Shown here: in pieces, positions 2,227 to 8,989 of the stretch
Numbering within the stretch: the first letter of the stretch is position 1
Layout of the letters: each line of letters begins with the position of its first letter
Assembly (NCBI GenBank): GCA_003697105.1
Contig: RFFQ01000134.1
Coordinates: 1-46,150, forward strand
Source of the DNA: Gemmatimonadota bacterium
GTDB taxonomy: Bacteria; 4572-55; J002
DNA length: 46,150 nt
Direction of reading: 5' to 3'
Position numbers and translations under genes: made by a program
The notes under the pieces: generated by a model
What the model was told of the DNA's origin: nothing
What the model saw: the letters and a program-made list of their open reading frames with translations, nothing else
Databases searched by the model: none

Positions 2227-3000
2227 CTAAGACTGAGAGTTCGGGGATTCTGTCCACGGGGATGCCGGAGTGTCAGGTTCCGGTTGGTCTATTTCCCGAG
2301 ATTTGGGGTAACTCCACTGGGCGACAAAGATGCTGATTTCGTACAACCCTAATAACGGGATTGCCATCAAGCACTGGCTGATGATATCCGGGGGGGTCAG
2401 TAATGCTCCCGTAATGAAAATAATAACGACCGCCATGCCGCGTTGCGCTCGCATCACCTGCGGGGATAAAATACCCATTTTTGCTAGAAAAAACGTGACG
2501 ACGGGGAGTTCAAAAATAACCCCGAACGCTAGCAGTAGGCGAGTGGCAAAATTGATGTATTCTCCAATAGCCCATACATCTTGAATGCTTTCAGTGGCGA
2601 ACGAGTGGAGGAAATCCAGCGCAAACGGCATCACCACAACGTAGGCAAAGGTACTGCCCGCCAGAAAAAAACCACCCCCGGCGATCAATACCGGGATGAC
2701 GTATTTTTTTTCGGATTCCAACAGCCCGGGGGCAACGAATTTCCAAATTTGGTAGATCACCGCCGGTAATGCCAGAAAAAATCCACCGGTAATCGCCAAT
2801 TTCAGACGCACGATGAACCCCTCGGTTGGTTTGAGCATTTGCAGTGTCAAATCCTTCGGGACAGGAGTCAGTAAGGCGGAGAGCATCTCTTCCGAGATGA
2901 ACCAGCAGAGTACGGCGCCGATAGCAATTGCACCCAGTGCATAAAATAGCCGCCAGCGCAACTCTTCCAAATGTTCGAGGAGGGTCATTCCTTCAGCCAT
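2227..3000 (-). CDS. tatC: Twin-arginine translocase subunit TatC
   Basis: MTLLEHLEELRWRL, YQIWKFVAPGLLESEKK, FGVIFELP, LTPPD..SQ...AIP...LYEISI; about 6 TM segments. Confidence 0.96.
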   Translation of the reverse strand: MAEGMTLLEHLEELRWRLFYALGAIAIGAVLCWFISEEMLSALLTPVPKDLTLQMLKPTEGFIVRLKLAITGGFFLALPAVIYQIWKFVAPGLLESEKKYVIPVLIAGGGFFLAGSTFAYVVVMPFALDFLHSFATESIQDVWAIGEYINFATRLLLAFGVIFELPVVTFFLAKMGILSPQVMRAQRGMAVVIIFITGALLTPPDIISQCLMAIPLLGLYEISIFVAQWSYPKSREIDQPEPDTPASPWTESPNSQS

Positions 3001-3175: not shown

Positions 3176-4246
3176 TTACGACCAAATTCCCGGAATGGGA
3201 GTGCCACAGTGGGGGCAATTTCCATCTGTACCCAACCGGTTTTGTAAGATGTAAAACCCCTGCCGTTCGATCAACAGGGTCTGGCACTGCGGGCAGTACG
3301 TATTTTCCCGGTGATTCACTTGACCGGGTAGGTTACCGGCATAGACAAAATGGAGTCCCGCTTCTTCGCCGGTAGCGACCGCCCGGAGCAACGTTTCCCG
3401 GGGGGTTCTCGTGGGACCGGTCATTTTATAATCCGGATGAAACGCCGTCACATGCCACGGGATGTCCGGGGATAAATCTGCTAAAAATTGAGCAATCTCC
3501 CGCAATTCTTCCGGGGAATCATTAAAATTCGGTACGATGAGGGTCACAATTTCCACCCAAAATTGTTTTTCTACTAACTGTTGGATGGTTGTCAAGACGG
3601 CGTCCAATGTACCGCCGAGCTTGCGATACTGCCGGTCTTGGAACGTTTTCAAATCAACTTTGTACGCCACGACGTACGGGCGAATGTAGTCCAACACCTC
3701 TTCGGTCGCATTACCGTTAGAAACATAGGTACACTTCAAGCCGTGAGGTTGGGCACGTTTGAAAATTTCCACCGCCCATTCACTGGTAATCAGGGGTTCA
3801 TTGTAGGTGCTGGTTAGGATGGGTGCATTGTGTTGAAGGGCAATATCAACGATAGCTTCGGCGGATATTTGCCGGTAATACCCACTGGCGTTTTCATCGC
3901 GTAAGGTCTGGGATGTCAACCAATTTTGGCAGTAACTACAATGCAGATCGCACCCTAACATGCCGAAACTGAGGGCTTTTGAGCCGGGCAACACATGGAA
4001 AAACGGTTTTTTTTCAACCGGATCGACTTGTAACCCGGCAACGTAGCCGTGGGGGACTTTGAGTACCCCTCCCGCATTGAATCGGACTTTGCAAATACCG
4101 GGTCGATGGGGAGGGATTTTACAGCAGTGCCCGCAGGCAACACAGCGCACCCAATCTGGCTGGTCCGGTATGGGCGCCCATAGCTCCCCTACAACGGTCT
4201 GCTGGGCAAGACGTTGAAAGAGGGTTGGGTTGGCGGTGGTTGGCAT
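3176..4246 (-). CDS. amrS: AmmeMemoRadiSam system radical SAM enzyme (PflA-like)
   Basis: CxxxCxxC (CDLHCSYCQN), DPVEKKPFFH, TYNEP, AFHPDYKM, N- and C-terminal Cys pairs (CVACGHCC, CPQC..CPHC). Confidence 0.9.
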   Translation of the reverse strand: MPTTANPTLFQRLAQQTVVGELWAPIPDQPDWVRCVACGHCCKIPPHRPGICKVRFNAGGVLKVPHGYVAGLQVDPVEKKPFFHVLPGSKALSFGMLGCDLHCSYCQNWLTSQTLRDENASGYYRQISAEAIVDIALQHNAPILTSTYNEPLITSEWAVEIFKRAQPHGLKCTYVSNGNATEEVLDYIRPYVVAYKVDLKTFQDRQYRKLGGTLDAVLTTIQQLVEKQFWVEIVTLIVPNFNDSPEELREIAQFLADLSPDIPWHVTAFHPDYKMTGPTRTPRETLLRAVATGEEAGLHFVYAGNLPGQVNHRENTYCPQCQTLLIERQGFYILQNRLGTDGNCPHCGTPIPGIWS

Positions 4247-4266: not shown

Positions 4267-4746
4267 TCAATTAAATACTTTTTCGATATTCATTACAATA
4301 AATTCTTCTTCGCCGGCGGGGACTTTTATAGTTACCACTTCACCCCGCTGTTTGGTCATCAGGGATTTGGCAATCGGGGCGGAATAGGCAATGATGTTTT
4401 TCTCCAGATCGTAATCCCCTTCGCCCAAAATGGTATAGGTGATTTCCTCACCGGTATGCAGATTTAGCAGGTGCGCCCGGGTTCCGATACTAATCGTTGT
4501 CCCGGAGATACTGAGGGTTTCGATGAGTTGGGCGCGATTCATTCGCATCATCACATTTTGCAATTTGGTAGCGAAGGTGCGTTGTTTATCCTTGGCGGCA
4601 TCGTATTCTGCATTTTCGCTCAAATCTCCCAAGGCAGCCGCTTTTGAAATCTCTTCTGCGATGGTCGTTTTGAGTTCGCGCTCTAGGTATTGCGCTTCAT
4701 CTTTTAGGCGATTTAGTGTCGCGCGGGTCATGTAGATAGGTTCCAT
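4267..4746 (-). CDS. greA: Transcription elongation factor GreA
   Basis: GDLSENAEYDAAK acidic tip, C-terminal SAPIAKSL..GEVV domain; GGAGG SD upstream. Confidence 0.95.
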   Translation of the reverse strand: MEPIYMTRATLNRLKDEAQYLERELKTTIAEEISKAAALGDLSENAEYDAAKDKQRTFATKLQNVMMRMNRAQLIETLSISGTTISIGTRAHLLNLHTGEEITYTILGEGDYDLEKNIIAYSAPIAKSLMTKQRGEVVTIKVPAGEEEFIVMNIEKVFN

Positions 4747-4770
4747 GATGATCCTCCGGTTTTTCTAGGG

Positions 4771-6426
4771 TTACGATGATTGGATTTCACTCATGCGGAG
4801 CATCTCTCGGACTCGCTGGATTTGGGTCAAGAGAAATCGCTGTTTATCCCACAAGGTGAGATAGTGGGAGTCTTTGGTACCTTTTTCTTCGCGGGCGGCG
4901 GCCATTTCGCGGGTAATTTTGGGCAATTCTTCCATCAGGAGCATTTCAAACCGGTCTTCCATCTCTTTGTATTCGGCGGCGGTGACTTTTTGCTTTTCCA
5001 TACTTTTACGGGAGTGGAGCGCATCCTCAAAATAGTGGGAGAGGGTTTCCAGAATATGCACCCGATTTTGCATTTCGAGGATATCCATCACCTGTTCCTG
5101 ATCGTGGATCCGAATGGAACTGGAGGTAAGGTAGGTTTCCAAGAACTTCTCGACGACGTTATCATCAAATTCCCCAATGAACCGGTTGAGGATGTTTCTA
5201 TTGACCACGAGGGTATAGACGTTCTCACGGGATTTACCGGCGGGTATCCAATCGAGCATATTCACGAGTTTGTAGAGGATCAACTTCATATCCATGTTGT
5301 GGATATGATTTTTTAGGTGCTGGGTTAGGAGTTCCGTTGCCAACCATGTAAACGTATTGGGGTTTTCGGTCACTTGTTCGGCGTACATTTCCAGAGCCAT
5401 GTTGATCTCTTCCCATTTGCCGGCCCGGACGAGTTCTTTCAGCGCCATTCGGCGGATTCGCACCGCGGAAGCCTCTAATGCCGTTAGATAGACATCTGCC
5501 CAGTTGGGCTTTTCCCGCACCAATGTTAGTACTCGTTCCGCATCTGCCGTATAGAGAAGTTTTGAGACATCTACGGCGCCTTCAAACAAGGCTTCACCGG
5601 CTTCGGGTACTCCATGTTGGGGGGATTTTTGGGCGAGTTTTTCTGCTAGAAAATAGGCTTGGATGCGGAGTGCTTTTTCCTCCTCCGTATTCATAATTTG
5701 GTCGGCAAGATAGGTATGACATTGCGCGCGTATTTTATCATCTAGATCGTCAAAATGGTCTTCAATCAACGTTTTGATGATGCGGAGTTTATTCTCAATT
5801 TGATCTTGTTGGAGAAAGCGCTCATAAATTTCTTCGTGGAGGGGCTTCGGAGCTTCGCGGAGGGCGTAGATTTGGCGTTGGCTTTGGGACGTATCAAAGT
5901 GGGGGTCTTCCCGAAGTAAGGGGGTGACGGATCTCCACCATTTGTCCCACTGCTGAGGTTTGAGCAGTTTTTGTTGCACCAACAGCCGCTTAATGTCATC
6001 GGTGCGAGCTTGCCGGTTGAAATCCATCAAGACCAAAGCGACAATATCGGTTGGTTTTTCCTTGACCATCTGTTTGATTTTGTCCGGGTCATCCAGCAAA
6101 GCGGCTCGCAGCCCGTCTGCCGGTATGGGTTCTAGTTTTTCGGCGATTTTCCACGCCATGCCGGTGATGGTCTCCCGTTGGAATTTGACATCGACCGACG
6201 TTTCTGTTGTTCGGAGCACTTTGCCGACACCCCGAATGGTGTGGTACACATAGTCTCCCTCTTTCACGTGTTGGTAAGGCTGAATTTTATCATTTACGAC
6301 ATTCCACGTCAGATAATAGCCTTTTTGGGATGGGAAATCGATAGTGATGCCTTTGCGGTCTGTTTTTACGACCCAACCCTTCCCCAAATCGGGGTGTTCC
6401 ACCCGGTCCCCCGCATGGTATTTCAT
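4771..6426 (-). CDS. GreA-associated-domain protein with tandem Tudor-like N-terminus and degenerate C-terminal GreA coiled coil
   Basis: Two GDxVxH..G.G.V repeats, WDKWW...L..DP.F motif recalling long GreA of chlamydiae/spirochaetes; C-terminal VTAAEYKEME...DKQR aligns by eye with the adjacent GreA N-domain; GGAGGAG SD. Confidence 0.72.
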   Translation of the reverse strand: MKYHAGDRVEHPDLGKGWVVKTDRKGITIDFPSQKGYYLTWNVVNDKIQPYQHVKEGDYVYHTIRGVGKVLRTTETSVDVKFQRETITGMAWKIAEKLEPIPADGLRAALLDDPDKIKQMVKEKPTDIVALVLMDFNRQARTDDIKRLLVQQKLLKPQQWDKWWRSVTPLLREDPHFDTSQSQRQIYALREAPKPLHEEIYERFLQQDQIENKLRIIKTLIEDHFDDLDDKIRAQCHTYLADQIMNTEEEKALRIQAYFLAEKLAQKSPQHGVPEAGEALFEGAVDVSKLLYTADAERVLTLVREKPNWADVYLTALEASAVRIRRMALKELVRAGKWEEINMALEMYAEQVTENPNTFTWLATELLTQHLKNHIHNMDMKLILYKLVNMLDWIPAGKSRENVYTLVVNRNILNRFIGEFDDNVVEKFLETYLTSSSIRIHDQEQVMDILEMQNRVHILETLSHYFEDALHSRKSMEKQKVTAAEYKEMEDRFEMLLMEELPKITREMAAAREEKGTKDSHYLTLWDKQRFLLTQIQRVREMLRMSEIQSS

Positions 6427-6552
6427 AACTCCTCCAAAAATATATCGCGGTTTAGTACACTGTAAACAGGGTTATGTTAGCCCGACATGCTTTATTTTTG
6501 GCACATTCAAGCTCGAAAACCCTAACGTTACACGGTAATTGAGTTTGTTAAA

Positions 6553-6672: not shown

Positions 6673-7206
6673 TTATTTCCCGGCGGATTTTGAGTGTTGG
6701 GTTTGTTGTTGGTATGTACGGTAGATGTCCATTCGTTCTTTCATGGTTTTTAATAGCAGTAAAATGAGAGTCCGGTCACTGCTTTCCACGTTATGGATGT
6801 AATCACGCAGATATTCATCTTTAATGGGATGCTCACGCTGATATTGGCGCACTAAACATTCATGCCGTAAATAACGCATTACGCTAATTGCCGCATGATA
6901 CATCACTGAAATATGATCCACCGCGGAGAGTTCATAGGGGGTGATAAAATCCGGAGGGTTAGTCGGATCCCCGCCTAACCCTCGAAAACCAAAATAACGC
7001 GCCTCTTTCAAATGCCCGACCAGTGTTTTTGCCAACTCTAAGAGCTGTTCTGGACCATCCGGTGTGGCATGGAGCTTTTCAAAATGGTGCAGGAGATATT
7101 CAATTTCCTGAGAGGCTTGCTCCAAAAAGTTATCCCGATCCCGTAAAAACGCCGCTCGGTTTTGAAATTGGATGGATGGTATTGCCTGAGGTTCCATATG
7201 GTTCAA
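6673..7206 (-). CDS. Hypothetical helical protein (start may be ATG 7197)
   Basis: 177-aa ORF overlapping the upstream stop; no motif recognised. Confidence 0.65.
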   Translation of the reverse strand: MNHMEPQAIPSIQFQNRAAFLRDRDNFLEQASQEIEYLLHHFEKLHATPDGPEQLLELAKTLVGHLKEARYFGFRGLGGDPTNPPDFITPYELSAVDHISVMYHAAISVMRYLRHECLVRQYQREHPIKDEYLRDYIHNVESSDRTLILLLLKTMKERMDIYRTYQQQTQHSKSAGK

Positions 7207-7547
7207 TCCAGTAGTTCTTCTTTGAGTTCTTGGAGGTGTTTTGACCGCCGTTGGGCACTCATTCCCAGATTGTGACGGGGATAGGCGTTTGCCAGTGTGG
7301 TAAATGTTTCAATTGCATCATCATATCGTTCGAGCTTGGCGAGGGATTCCCCTTTCCAATACATGGCGCGGATTTTGGTTTCGGTATCCAGATTTTCGGT
7401 TGCCAGTGTGGCTTCAAAGCCTTCAAGAGCTTCCCCGTAGGCTTCGTTATAATAATGTTCATTAGCGGTAACAAACACCGGGATCGCTTTTGATTTCGCC
7501 GGTGCTTCCACGGGATGGTTTTCGAGAGGTGTTTCTTTTTCCGTCAT
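7203..7547 (-). CDS. Small TPR protein (CpoB/YfiO-like TPR)
   Basis: AMYWKGESLAKLERYDDAIETFTTLANAYP TPR pattern; AAGGA SD. Confidence 0.75.
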   Translation of the reverse strand: MTEKETPLENHPVEAPAKSKAIPVFVTANEHYYNEAYGEALEGFEATLATENLDTETKIRAMYWKGESLAKLERYDDAIETFTTLANAYPRHNLGMSAQRRSKHLQELKEELLD

Positions 7548-7594: not shown

Positions 7595-8989
7595 TTAGAA
7601 TTCAGCAGAATTGGGTACTCGCGGGAACGGAATCACATCGCGGATGTTTTTCATTCCGGTGAGATACATCACGGCGCGCTCAAAACCGAGTCCGAAACCT
7701 GCATGGGGTACAGTGCCATATCGCCGTAAATCTAGGTACCACCAATAATCCGGTTGGTGCAACCCCAATTCATCAATGCGTTGGCAGAGGACATCGTAGC
7801 GCTCTTCACGTTGGCTCCCGCCGATGAGTTCTCCCACGCCGGGTACCAGTAAATCCATAGCGGCGACGGTGTTGTTGTCATCGTTGACCCGCATATAAAA
7901 GGCTTTGATGGCTTTTGGATAATTCATTACAAAGACCGGTTTTTTCAACGCAACTTCCGTGAGATAGCGTTCGTGTTCGGTTTGGAGGTCAATACCCCAT
8001 GTGACGGGATAGTCAAATTTCTGGTTAGCTTTTTCCAGCAATTGGATGGCATCGGAATAGTCTAGCCGTTCAAAGCCGCTGTTGAGCATGTGTTCCAGCC
8101 GTTCGATCAGCCCGTTATCAATGAATTTATTGAAAAATTCCATTTCTTCAGGGGCTTTTTCCATCACGTCTTTGACAATATAGCGCACCATGTCCTCTGC
8201 CAGATCGGCATCATCATATAGATCGGCGAAAGCGATTTCTGGCTCAATCATCCACAATTCGGAAATATGGCGGGGCGTGTTGGAGTTTTCTGCCCGAAAA
8301 GCGGGTCCGAAGGTGTACACGTTGGCGAAATTCATACAGAAGGTTTCAACTTCCAGTTGCCCACTCACCGTCAAATTAGTTTCCTTACCGAAAAAATCTT
8401 TAGAGAAATCCACTTCTCCTTTTTCGGTGCGGGGCACGTTCAGCAGATCGAATGTGGTTACCCGGAACATTTCACCGGCGCCTTCGCAATCACTTCCGGT
8501 GATGAGCGGGGTATGCACATAAACAAACCCGCGATCTTGAAAAAAGGAGTGAATGGCGTGGGCAAGTAAACTTCGGACACGAAACACCGCGGTAAAGGTG
8601 TTGGTGCGGGGGCGTAGATGGGCAATGGTTCGTAAAAACTCAAATGAATGGCGCTTTTTCTGTAAAGGGTAGTCCGCATCCGCCAACCCGACGATGGTAA
8701 TTTCGTGAGCTTTAATTTCAAACGCTTGTTTGGCGCCGGGAGATTCGACGACTTCCCCGGTAACTATCAGCGATGAGCCGAGGGTAATTTTAGAGACCGC
8801 TTCAAAATTAGCCAGAGATTCATCAAATACAATTTGGATATTTTTAAAGAAAGAACCGTCGTTGAGTTCAATAAATCCAAACGTTTTGGATAACCGGCTG
8901 GTACGTACCCAACCTTTCAACTGTACGGATTCTCCGATGAGTTTGGTATAAGCTCCTCTAAAAAGCTCTTTTACGGTAATGGGTTTCAC
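7595..8989 (-). CDS. asnS: Asparagine--tRNA ligase
   Basis: GWVRT OB-fold, [58 protein letters not shown]. Confidence 0.97.

What the first reader, a model, noticed from the sequence alone, without database searches (positions are those of the whole stretch)
4267..6426. Two-gene Gre module: catalytically altered long Gre-like factor upstream of canonical greA
Seen: the 551-aa ORF ends in an approximately 70-aa segment (4771-4989) that aligns with the neighbouring GreA N-domain (ITREMAAAREE-KGTKDSHY-LTLWDKQR vs IAEEISKAAAL-GDLSENAEY-DAAKDKQR). The tip is one residue shorter, lacks the DxxE acidic pair, and no Gre C-terminal domain follows. Known: the two tip acids (E. coli D41/E44) are needed for transcript cleavage, and Gre paralogs with altered tips (Gfh1, Rnk) are non-cleaving or inhibitory; chlamydial and spirochaete GreA carry a long N-terminal extension. 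Inference: duplication or fission of a long GreA produced a dedicated RNAP secondary-channel modulator or GreA partner, possibly an undescribed transcription control system.
Basis: partly seen in the sequence, partly recalled or inferred. Interest (0 to 1): 0.75.

Follow-up and report, generated by a model that had tools for sequence, protein, structure and literature searches.

The report
Needle-only, acid-less Gre paralogue beside greA
Next to an ordinary greA gene this uncultured bacterium encodes a conserved 551-residue relative of the oversized "long GreA" factors that keeps the needle-like coiled coil but has lost both its catalytic acidic tip and the usual docking domain, so it is probably an RNA-polymerase-bound factor that cannot itself trigger RNA cleavage.

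Summary
Window 4771-6426 (-) encodes a 551-aa protein. Its last ~75 residues are a true Gre N-terminal hairpin: hhalign E 8.3e-6, and E. coli GreA is the top structural match (Z 10.9, rmsd 1.3 A). The protein stops at the N/C-domain border. It lacks the D41/E44 acid pair, with Lys at both positions. A canonical 159-aa GreA follows 24 nt downstream.

The rest of the protein is the N-terminal module of the catalogued long GreA family: two Tudor barrels, a winged helix (Pfam HTH_GRAD) and a helical solenoid.

The truncated form is conserved, not decayed. All 3 genomes of this candidate class have it (27-31% identity, intact frames), each beside exactly one canonical GreA. Of 94 aligned family members, only this clade (4 rows) lacks both the acid pair and the C domain.

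The "two-gene module" is not conserved: the genes are adjacent in only 1 of the 3 genomes. Origin by fission of a long GreA is neither shown nor excluded, because the trees and AU tests conflict.

The best reading is a non-cleaving, polymerase-associated Gre derivative, possibly a secondary-channel occupant. Polymerase binding and channel entry are inferred, not shown. I rate it a new variant of a known kind, of moderate interest.

This scan had already noted a related C-domain-less long Gre with an intact tip on other DNA (e1-4394543).

The parts
4771..6426 (-). Gene for the 551-aa truncated long-Gre paralogue (P0001), stop codon TAA at 4771-4773
   Evidence: ORF list and translation. NF011309 long GreA positions 307-817 of 906, E 7.1e-32, 110 bits, far below the 714 cut-off. 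AF2 mean pLDDT 92.1, pTM 0.76.
6271..6426 (-). Tudor-like barrel 1 (residues 1-52)
   Evidence: Four strands E8-40 in the model. UvrD C-terminal domain 7egt_D Z 8.3, rmsd 1.4 A, 47 of 47 residues, 28% identity. PcrA_UvrD_tudor 18.4 bits, below the 23.9 cut-off. Shared only with P0003, P0005, P0154 and P0006 among the aligned relatives.
6121..6270 (-). Tudor-like barrel 2 (residues 53-102), the barrel common to all long GreAs
   Evidence: Strands E59-91. CarD_TRCF_RID scores 15.7 bits here (cut-off 23) but passes in relatives: P0003 29.3, P0005 27.1, P0154 31.7, P0006 38.0. H62, G66 and G68 are invariant in 9 aligned members.
5848..6120 (-). Winged-helix domain (residues 103-193), Pfam HTH_GRAD
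   Evidence: PF27167.1 is precomputed for this protein and named HTH_GRAD by the Atlas listing. It is the most conserved part across the class, 44-46% identity between families. W160, W163 and W164 are invariant. Structural matches are a 92-residue chain of a B. subtilis RNAP complex (7f75_L, Z 9.2) and 8x6g_E (Z 8.6). The local Pfam copy gives no family.
4999..5847 (-). Helical-repeat solenoid (residues 194-476), GRAD_C-type arm
   Evidence: About 17 helices, H196-474. Only HEAT/ARM-type solenoid matches by Foldseek, best E 4.9e-4. The Atlas structure rows name PF27371 GRAD_C for the aligned part.
4774..4998 (-). Gre N-domain-type hairpin (residues 477-551): strand 479-481, helix 483-515, loop, helix 520-545
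   Evidence: It is as conserved as the rest of the protein: 73% against 63% overall for P0001/P0003, and 45% against 48% overall for P0005/P0154.
4864..4896 (-). Hairpin tip (residues 511-521, A-R-E-E-K-G-T-K-D-S-H) before the invariant Tyr522; Lys515 and Lys518 sit where D41 and E44 sit in GreA
   Evidence: Sequence read directly. G40, D41, L42, E44, N45, A46 and Y48 are invariant in 34 of 34 short GreAs. Tip identity is 73% to P0003 but 0-9% to the other family of the class.
4747..4770 (-). 24-nt spacer between the two genes, with GGAGG at 4753-4757. greA is in the same reading frame as the upstream gene, and a second in-frame stop (TAG, 4765-4767) follows the TAA
   Evidence: Sequence read directly. 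No terminator-like site on the minus strand between the genes.
4267..4746 (-). Canonical greA (P0002, 159 aa) with an intact G40-D41-L42-S43-E44-N45-A46-E47-Y48 tip and a C domain
   Evidence: It is the only PF01272 match in this genome.
6439..6466 (-). Promoter-like site (TTTACA, 16 nt, TATATT; 10 of 12 matches), 13 nt upstream of the start codon
   Evidence: Consensus scan only: 10 sites found against 6.1 +/- 2.6 in shuffles over the region. Not evidence of function.

Best explanation
The 551-aa protein is a functional, conserved offshoot of the long GreA family (GRAD module fused to GreA). It keeps the whole N-terminal module: two Tudor barrels, the HTH_GRAD winged helix and a helical solenoid arm. 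It also keeps the Gre coiled-coil 'needle'. It has lost the Gre C-terminal docking domain and the two tip acids that Gre factors need to stimulate RNA cleavage. In this lineage both positions are lysines. Transcript cleavage is therefore left to the separate canonical GreA, which in this genome is encoded 24 nt downstream and is probably co-transcribed.

Most likely the protein rides on RNA polymerase through its Tudor/winged-helix module, as inferred from the folds that UvrD/PcrA, CarD and Mfd use to hold the polymerase. From there it would present a chemically inert needle to the secondary channel. It would then act as a non-cleaving occupant or gatekeeper that can compete with GreA and DksA-type factors, not as a cleavage factor.

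Shown here: homology, fold, domain loss, tip loss, conservation, and coexistence with one true GreA. Inferred: polymerase binding, channel entry, competition.
For: Family membership of the N-terminal part and hairpin: NF011309 E 7.1e-32 and NF004969 E 1.1e-21; 543 relatives at E<=0.001 in the representative library. The model is confident (pLDDT 92.1; the G002 homologue gives 95.1 with the same architecture). Gre fold of the C-terminus. Loss is clade-specific. Of 94 aligned family rows, 81 have the D-x-x-E pair plus a C domain, 1 (P0132) has the pair but no C domain, 4 (this clade) have neither, 2 are aberrant and 6 lack the region. Conservation: homologues of 535-553 aa ending at the same border occur in 3 of 3 genomes of the class plus one metagenomic protein, at 27-63% identity with no stops. 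The hairpin is as conserved as the rest. Each of the 3 genomes has exactly one PF01272 (Gre C domain) match, the short GreA. Tudor evidence: CarD_TRCF_RID passes its cut-off in 4 close relatives, and the UvrD C-terminal domain matches at Z 8.3. Gene order, same strand, Shine-Dalgarno-like GGAGG and no terminator-like site between the genes. Precedent from review passages: non-cleaving Gre-fold paralogues (Gfh1, Rv3788, Rnk) bind the polymerase and compete with Gre factors (PMC4598747).
Against: No result here shows polymerase binding or channel entry. According to the review passages, the domain responsible for polymerase binding in known secondary-channel factors is the C-terminal domain, which is missing here. 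The tip is the least conserved part across the class (0-9% identity), and helix 1 is 4-5 residues shorter in the other family. That fits relaxed constraint on the tip as well as it fits a plug. The two members of that other family keep an Asp at the E44-equivalent position, so 'acid-less' holds strictly only for the window's protein and P0003. Adjacency to greA is seen in only 1 of 3 genomes. The AF2 hairpin leans on an alignment dominated by canonical long GreAs. P0001 itself scores below the Pfam cut-offs for the Tudor families.
Confidence: 0.55

Rival explanations
1. The GRAD module (Tudor, winged helix, solenoid) is the working part and acts independently of the secondary channel. The hairpin would be only a retained structural cap of the solenoid with no contact to the active-site channel. 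The protein would then work like the Gre-less GRAD-only proteins of other phyla.
For: The Atlas lists clusters with HTH_GRAD but no Gre domains: 474 aa with 50 members, 494 aa with 142 members, and others of 302-370 aa. The 474- and 494-aa clusters align to query residues 1-469 and 42-469 (scores below 0.9, so leads only). The same Tudor plus winged-helix module is joined to GrpE-like C-termini in 21 of 153 held relatives, and to other unknown C-termini, so the module is autonomous. The tip is unconserved in sequence and length across the class.
Against: The hairpin is as conserved as the rest of the protein within each family of the class. It keeps the invariant Tyr and Gln of Gre needles. 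It ends exactly at the Gre domain border in all 4 members. A mere cap would not need to keep a 70-residue Gre-shaped hairpin over this divergence.
Confidence: 0.25
2. The protein is a partner of GreA. After a split of a long GreA, the N-terminal protein and the short GreA still assemble non-covalently, and the module recruits or positions GreA on the polymerase.
For: Adjacency in the same frame with a 24-nt spacer in this genome. Long-GreA carriers among the genomes searched (G029, G030, G032) each have only the fused gene as their GreA match, so the module and GreA normally act together. The class's GreA groups with GreA modules of a long-GreA clade (100/91).
Against: The genes are unlinked in 2 of 3 genomes. 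A retained second needle is not explained by this reading. The phylogenetic signal for a split is not robust (AU p 0.29 and 0.040). No interaction test was run on this pair.
Confidence: 0.1
3. It is a decaying remnant of a long GreA (local truncation) with no function.
For: Loss of the catalytic residues and of the C domain is what decay would produce first.
Against: Intact frames of 535-553 aa are found in 4 lineages down to 27% identity, all ending at the same border. There are 96 invariant columns in the 4-way alignment. Both AF2 models are very confident. No C-domain remnant follows the stop in any of the three loci.
Confidence: 0.03

Closest known systems
Long GreA fusion proteins (NCBIfam NF011309/PRK14720, about 906 aa, spirochaete type; NF004969/PRK06330, about 718 aa, 'transcript cleavage factor/unknown domain fusion protein'; Pfam HTH_GRAD PF27167 + GRAD_C PF27371 + PF03449 + PF01272)
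   Same: Tudor barrel, winged helix, helical solenoid and Gre N-domain hairpin in the same order. Alignable over residues 55-545.
   Different: No Gre C domain and no D-x-x-E tip. An extra N-terminal Tudor barrel. Scores of 110 and 77 bits against cut-offs of 714 and 697. Coexists with a separate short GreA, whereas the 3 long-GreA carriers seen here had only the fused gene.
P0006, a 641-aa metagenomic long GreA (closest fused relative)
   Same: Same double Tudor, winged helix and solenoid. 26% identity over residues 4-548, E 7.6e-50. Sister of the truncated clade in the N-terminal-module tree (92/85).
   Different: Has the canonical F-G-D-L-S-E-N-A-E-Y tip and a full C domain (PF01272, 80.1 bits).
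C-domain-less long Gre with an intact tip (P0132, 512 aa; compare the earlier scan note e1-4394543 on other DNA)
   Same: GRAD-type module followed by a needle that ends at the N/C-domain border. The C-terminal motif resembles that of P0005 and P0154.
   Different: P0132 keeps the G-D-L-S-E-N-A-E-Y tip (PF03449, 67.2 bits) and has one Tudor barrel. It does not group with this clade in the tree.
Gfh1 (Thermus/Deinococcus), Rv3788 (M. tuberculosis), Rnk (E. coli): non-cleaving Gre-fold factors
   Same: Gre-type coiled-coil paralogues that do not stimulate cleavage, exist beside a true GreA and can compete with it (review passages, PMC4598747). Gfh1 2etn_A matches the hairpin at Z 9.5.
   Different: All three keep the C-terminal polymerase-binding domain and are about 160 aa. 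Gfh1 and Rv3788 keep acidic tip residues, and Rnk has a short coiled coil. None has a Tudor/GRAD module.
Gre-less GRAD-only proteins (Atlas clusters of 474 and 494 aa, mostly Verrucomicrobiota)
   Same: Same N-terminal module as a free-standing protein.
   Different: They lack the hairpin altogether. Seen only as cluster listings with scores below 0.9, and not examined further.

Membership tests
GreA/GreB transcript cleavage factors | N-terminal antiparallel coiled-coil hairpin (PF03449) | tested here: met
   hhalign E 8.3e-6. 1grj_A Z 10.9, rmsd 1.3 A. PF03449 scores 21.5 bits on the protein and 25.5 bits in the genome search, against a cut-off of 24.5.
GreA/GreB transcript cleavage factors | Two acidic residues at the tip (D41, E44 in GreA numbering) | tested here: not met
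   Lys515 and Lys518 occupy these positions, counted from the invariant Tyr. D41 and E44 are invariant in 34 of 34 short GreAs and present in 82 of the 88 family rows of A2 that have tip residues.
GreA/GreB transcript cleavage factors | C-terminal globular domain (PF01272) that binds the polymerase | tested here: not met
   No PF01272 hit. The protein ends at the domain border. The only PF01272 match in the genome is the neighbouring greA.
GreA/GreB transcript cleavage factors | Stimulates endonucleolytic cleavage of backtracked RNA | not testable with these tools
   Needs a biochemical assay.
Long GreA (NF011309 / NF004969) | N-terminal Tudor, winged-helix and solenoid module homologous over its length | tested here: met
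   Aligned to model positions 307-817 of 906, E 7.1e-32. 543 relatives. Alignments A1 and A2.
Long GreA (NF011309 / NF004969) | Complete GreA module at the C-terminus; score over the equivalog cut-off | tested here: not met
   110.4 bits against 714, and 77.2 against 697. C domain absent.
GRAD-domain proteins (Pfam PF27167 HTH_GRAD) | Match to PF27167 | tested here: inconclusive
   PF27167.1 is listed as a precomputed domain of this very protein, and the Atlas neighbours carry it. The local Pfam copy does not hold the model, so no score was obtained here.
CarD/TRCF-RID and PcrA/UvrD Tudor domains | Tudor barrel matching PF02559 or PF21196 | tested here: inconclusive
   P0001 is below the cut-offs (15.7 against 23; 18.4 against 23.9). 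The close relatives P0003, P0005, P0154 and P0006 pass PF02559. UvrD C-terminal domain Z 8.3, rmsd 1.4 A.
CarD/TRCF-RID and PcrA/UvrD Tudor domains | Binds the RNA polymerase beta subunit | not testable with these tools
   Needs a binding experiment or a structure.
Anti-Gre factors of the Gfh1/Rnk type | Two-domain Gre fold (coiled coil plus C domain) of about 160 aa | tested here: not met
   C domain absent. 551 aa with a 476-residue unrelated N-terminal module.

The most novel reading that the evidence does not exclude
The clade defines a new way of addressing the polymerase secondary channel. A Gre needle stripped of its chemistry and of its usual docking domain is delivered by a Tudor/winged-helix/solenoid arm anchored elsewhere on the enzyme. 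It would work as a dedicated gate or anti-Gre regulator that sets when the neighbouring true GreA may act. Together with needle-only forms that keep an intact tip, and with GRAD-only proteins, this would make GRAD a general, modular polymerase-tethering platform that has not been described in print (searches).
Probability: 0.3. Interest if true: 0.7.

Novelty: new variant of a known kind. Interest (0 to 1): 0.5.

Why it matters
Gre factors are the textbook example of proteins that reach the polymerase active site through the secondary channel, and all characterised members dock through their C-terminal domain. A conserved protein that keeps only the needle, with lysines in place of the catalytic acids, raises two questions. 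One is whether a needle can be delivered by another anchor. The other is what a chemically inert needle does. The protein hangs on the still unexplained N-terminal module of the long GreAs of chlamydiae, spirochaetes and many uncultured phyla. It is therefore a natural separation-of-function variant: studying it could show what that module does without the confounding cleavage activity. If the hairpin turns out to be only structural, the finding is a modest case of domain loss in a catalogued family.

Tried and rejected
1. Complex prediction of the own beta subunit (residues 1-530) with P0001 residues 1-200 returned 'no answer' (score 0.00, mark 0.32). This is neither for nor against binding. 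The pair P0001 with GreA, and the needle with the full polymerase core, were not folded: one job only, and a size limit.

2. Expression: no RNA run is listed as a holder of the stretch.

3. Metagenome contig scan with the family alignment found no further loci. The genome-contig scan found only the two class relatives. Adjacency could therefore not be checked for P0003/P0157, which sit on separate short contigs.

4. Whole-model Foldseek gave only generic solenoid matches. The profile search against PDB sequences gave nothing below E 0.1.

5. Idea that the upstream ORFs (114-aa TPR protein, 177-aa protein) are further split-off pieces of the TPR-bearing N-terminus of 900-aa long GreAs: phmmer found nothing (all E above 1). 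No profile-profile test was done.

6. Read-through joining the two genes: rejected, because two in-frame stops (TAA, then TAG one codon later) separate them.

7. dN/dS: not computed. No DNA is held for P0003, and the other pairs (27-48% identity) are saturated.

8. Fission test by trees. The results conflict, so no origin is claimed. The groups 'long48' and 'short13' were named after seeing the tree, so the AU tests on them are post hoc. Rows were thinned for speed. In one search, 31 earlier long rows were dropped. In one search, the sample was 24 of 48 long-clade rows, 18 of the other short rows and 10 other long rows, and four long-branch rows were left out. In some searches, every second row was used.

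9. Literature: eight searches found no paper on the long-GreA N-terminal module, on GRAD, or on C-domain-less forms. One search ('7F75') did not identify the chain matched by the winged helix. From recall only, I take it to be the delta subunit N-terminal domain. Supplementary files were not consulted.
Full report
**The observation.** Two same-strand ORFs are present as described: 4771-6426 (-), 551 aa (P0001), and 4267-4746 (-), 159 aa (P0002). They are separated by 24 nt that contain a GGAGG. The two genes are in the same frame, but TAA is followed one codon later by an in-frame TAG, so read-through is not an option. P0002 is an ordinary GreA, with both Pfam domains and 136.3 bits to TIGR01462. 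Its tip residues G40, D41, L42, E44, N45, A46 and Y48 are invariant in 34 of 34 aligned short GreAs.

**The C-terminal hairpin.** The C-terminal ~75 residues of P0001 are homologous to the Gre N domain.
- On its own the signal is weak: Pfam gives E 2.6e-4 and 21.5 bits, under the cut-off, and 25.5 bits in the six-frame genome search. BLASTP against the neighbour gives E 0.47.
- With relatives it becomes firm. hhalign of the 4-member family against 34 GreAs gives E 8.3e-6, probability 83.5%, over 68 columns mapping to GreA residues 4-76.
- The full-length alignment to fused long GreAs runs through the hairpin.
- In the AF2 model (pLDDT 92.1) residues 477-549 superpose on E. coli GreA at rmsd 1.3 A. 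That match (Z 10.9) is the best of 48,161 chains, followed by GreB (Z 10.6) and Gfh1 (Z 9.5). Helical hairpins are common, and many unrelated ones score Z 8-9 in the same list. The model also leans on an alignment of canonical members.

**What the rest is.** NCBIfam aligns residues 55-545 to positions 307-817 of the 906-position spirochaete long GreA model (E 7.1e-32), and also to the chlamydial 'transcript cleavage factor/unknown domain fusion protein'. An exhaustive HMMER search found 543 relatives at E<=0.001, mostly 700-940-aa long GreAs. The model shows the following parts:
- Two small barrels (residues 1-52 and 53-102). The first matches the UvrD C-terminal Tudor domain (Z 8.3, rmsd 1.4 A, 28% identity).
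- A winged helix (103-193). It resembles a roughly 90-residue chain present in two Gram-positive polymerase structures.
- A helical solenoid (194-476).
- The hairpin.

CarD_TRCF_RID passes its Pfam cut-off in the four closest relatives, though not in P0001 itself. Newer Pfam names, seen only through precomputed listings, call the winged helix HTH_GRAD (PF27167) and part of the solenoid GRAD_C (PF27371).

**Decay or design.** The genome belongs to a lineage with only two other species-level genomes in the held collection (same class, another family). Their records are titled as uncultured MAGs. Both carry a homologue of 535-541 aa (27-31% identity) that also ends right after the hairpin, with unrelated genes following. 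A fourth member (P0003, 62% identity, 553 aa) comes from a metagenome.

In a 94-row family alignment:
- 81 rows have the D-x-x-E pair and a C domain;
- one (P0132, 512 aa) has the pair but ends at the domain border;
- four (this clade) have neither;
- two are aberrant;
- six lack the region.

The hairpin is as conserved as the rest of the protein within each family of the class (73% and 45%). The 11-residue tip is conserved only between close relatives (73%) and not across families (0-9%). Counting back from the invariant Tyr, the window's protein and P0003 have Lys at both acid positions. P0005 and P0154 have Asp at the E44-equivalent position and Gly or Ala at the D41-equivalent position, and a helix 1 that is 4-5 residues shorter. 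Each of the three genomes has exactly one Gre C-domain match, the short GreA, and no full long GreA. This is a conserved, specialised protein and not a local truncation.

**The 'module'.** In the two relatives, greA sits on another contig with other neighbours. The adjacency is therefore seen in 1 of 3 genomes. In the window, a promoter-like site lies just upstream of P0001, and no terminator-like site separates the genes. Co-transcription here is plausible but untested, and no RNA run is available.

**Origin.** GreA-module trees place the class's short GreAs next to the modules of one large clade of roughly 900-aa long GreAs. Support is SH-aLRT 98 and 84 in the quick trees and UFBoot 100 / SH-aLRT 91 in a careful 70-row tree. 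An all-short-GreA clade is rejected (AU p 0.015). However, a sister relation to the nearest short GreAs is not rejected (p 0.29).

The N-terminal module of the truncated clade is sister to that of P0006, a 641-aa fused protein with the same double Tudor (92/85). Yet a clade of the class's GreA with P0006's GreA module is borderline rejected (p 0.040). The same-frame 24-nt junction would fit a split of an ORF with a duplicated needle, but one in three junctions would be in frame by chance. I therefore leave fission against independent paralogy open.

**Mechanism.** According to the review passages read (PMC4598747), known secondary-channel factors bind the polymerase through their C domain and insert the coiled coil, whose two acidic residues matter for function. 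Non-cleaving paralogues (Gfh1, Rv3788, Rnk) compete with Gre factors.

P0001 lacks both the anchor and the acids, so it cannot be a cleavage factor of the known kind. It does carry Tudor domains of the type that UvrD/PcrA, CarD and Mfd use on the polymerase. That use is established knowledge, recalled here and echoed by earlier notes of this scan on long GreAs. The most economical reading is a polymerase-tethered protein presenting an inert needle, acting as a possible gate or competitor in the channel.

The main rival is that the GRAD module is the functional unit and the hairpin only a structural remnant. Two observations favour that rival: Gre-less GRAD proteins exist, and the same module is fused to GrpE-like and other C-termini. 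The one complex prediction run gave no answer (see Tried and rejected).

**Novelty.** The long GreA family is catalogued in NCBIfam and Pfam. This scan had already noted its Tudor domain and, on other DNA, a C-domain-less form that keeps the needle. No paper on any of this was found in eight searches.

What is new here is the combination: no C domain, no acid pair, a double Tudor, and a canonical GreA alongside. It is conserved across a candidate class. I rate it a new variant of a known kind, with interest 0.5.

Noticed in passing
Proteins P0029, P0031 and 19 others (663-734 aa) among the relatives: The same Tudor plus winged-helix module (P0001 residues ~54-206, 30-37% identity) is fused to a GrpE-like C-terminus (Pfam GrpE 33.7 and 32.2 bits, cut-off 25.8). 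This applies to 21 of 153 held relatives by phmmer. It is an oversized GrpE-type protein carrying a presumed polymerase-binding module.
   Followed up: partly
Proteins P0020, P0030, P0039, P0064 and others (612-784 aa): A further group shares only the N-terminal Tudor/winged-helix module and has a long C-terminal part with no Pfam family.
   Followed up: no
L043:1486-5634 (rpoB of the window's genome): The beta subunit is 1382 aa, against frames of 1258 and 1262 aa in the two class relatives. By eye, the extra ~120 residues lie in the lobe region (about residues 385-500) and look like a small beta-sandwich insertion. Not tested.
   Followed up: no
window 4744-4773: The stop of the 551-aa gene and the ATG of greA are in the same reading frame, 24 nt apart, with a second in-frame stop (TAG) one codon after the TAA.
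   Followed up: partly
window 6673-7547 (-): Two small same-strand ORFs lie upstream: 114 aa with TPR hits just below the Pfam cut-offs, and 177 aa with no family. The 900-aa long GreAs carry TPR-like repeats at their extreme N-terminus, but phmmer found no similarity.
   Followed up: partly
window 3176-4246 (-): A radical SAM gene (PF04055, 66.7 bits) starts 20 nt after the greA stop on the same strand, followed by tatC (2227-3000). asnS lies upstream at 7595-8989.
   Followed up: no
Atlas clusters: Free-standing GRAD proteins without any Gre domain appear as clusters of 474 aa (50 members), 494 aa (142 members) and 302-370 aa, mostly Verrucomicrobiota. These are leads only, with scores below 0.9.
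   Followed up: no
G000 contigs C140, C34, C124: Three DksA/TraR-type zinc-finger matches in this genome, one in G001 and none found in G002 (93% complete). Other secondary-channel factors may therefore coexist.
   Followed up: no
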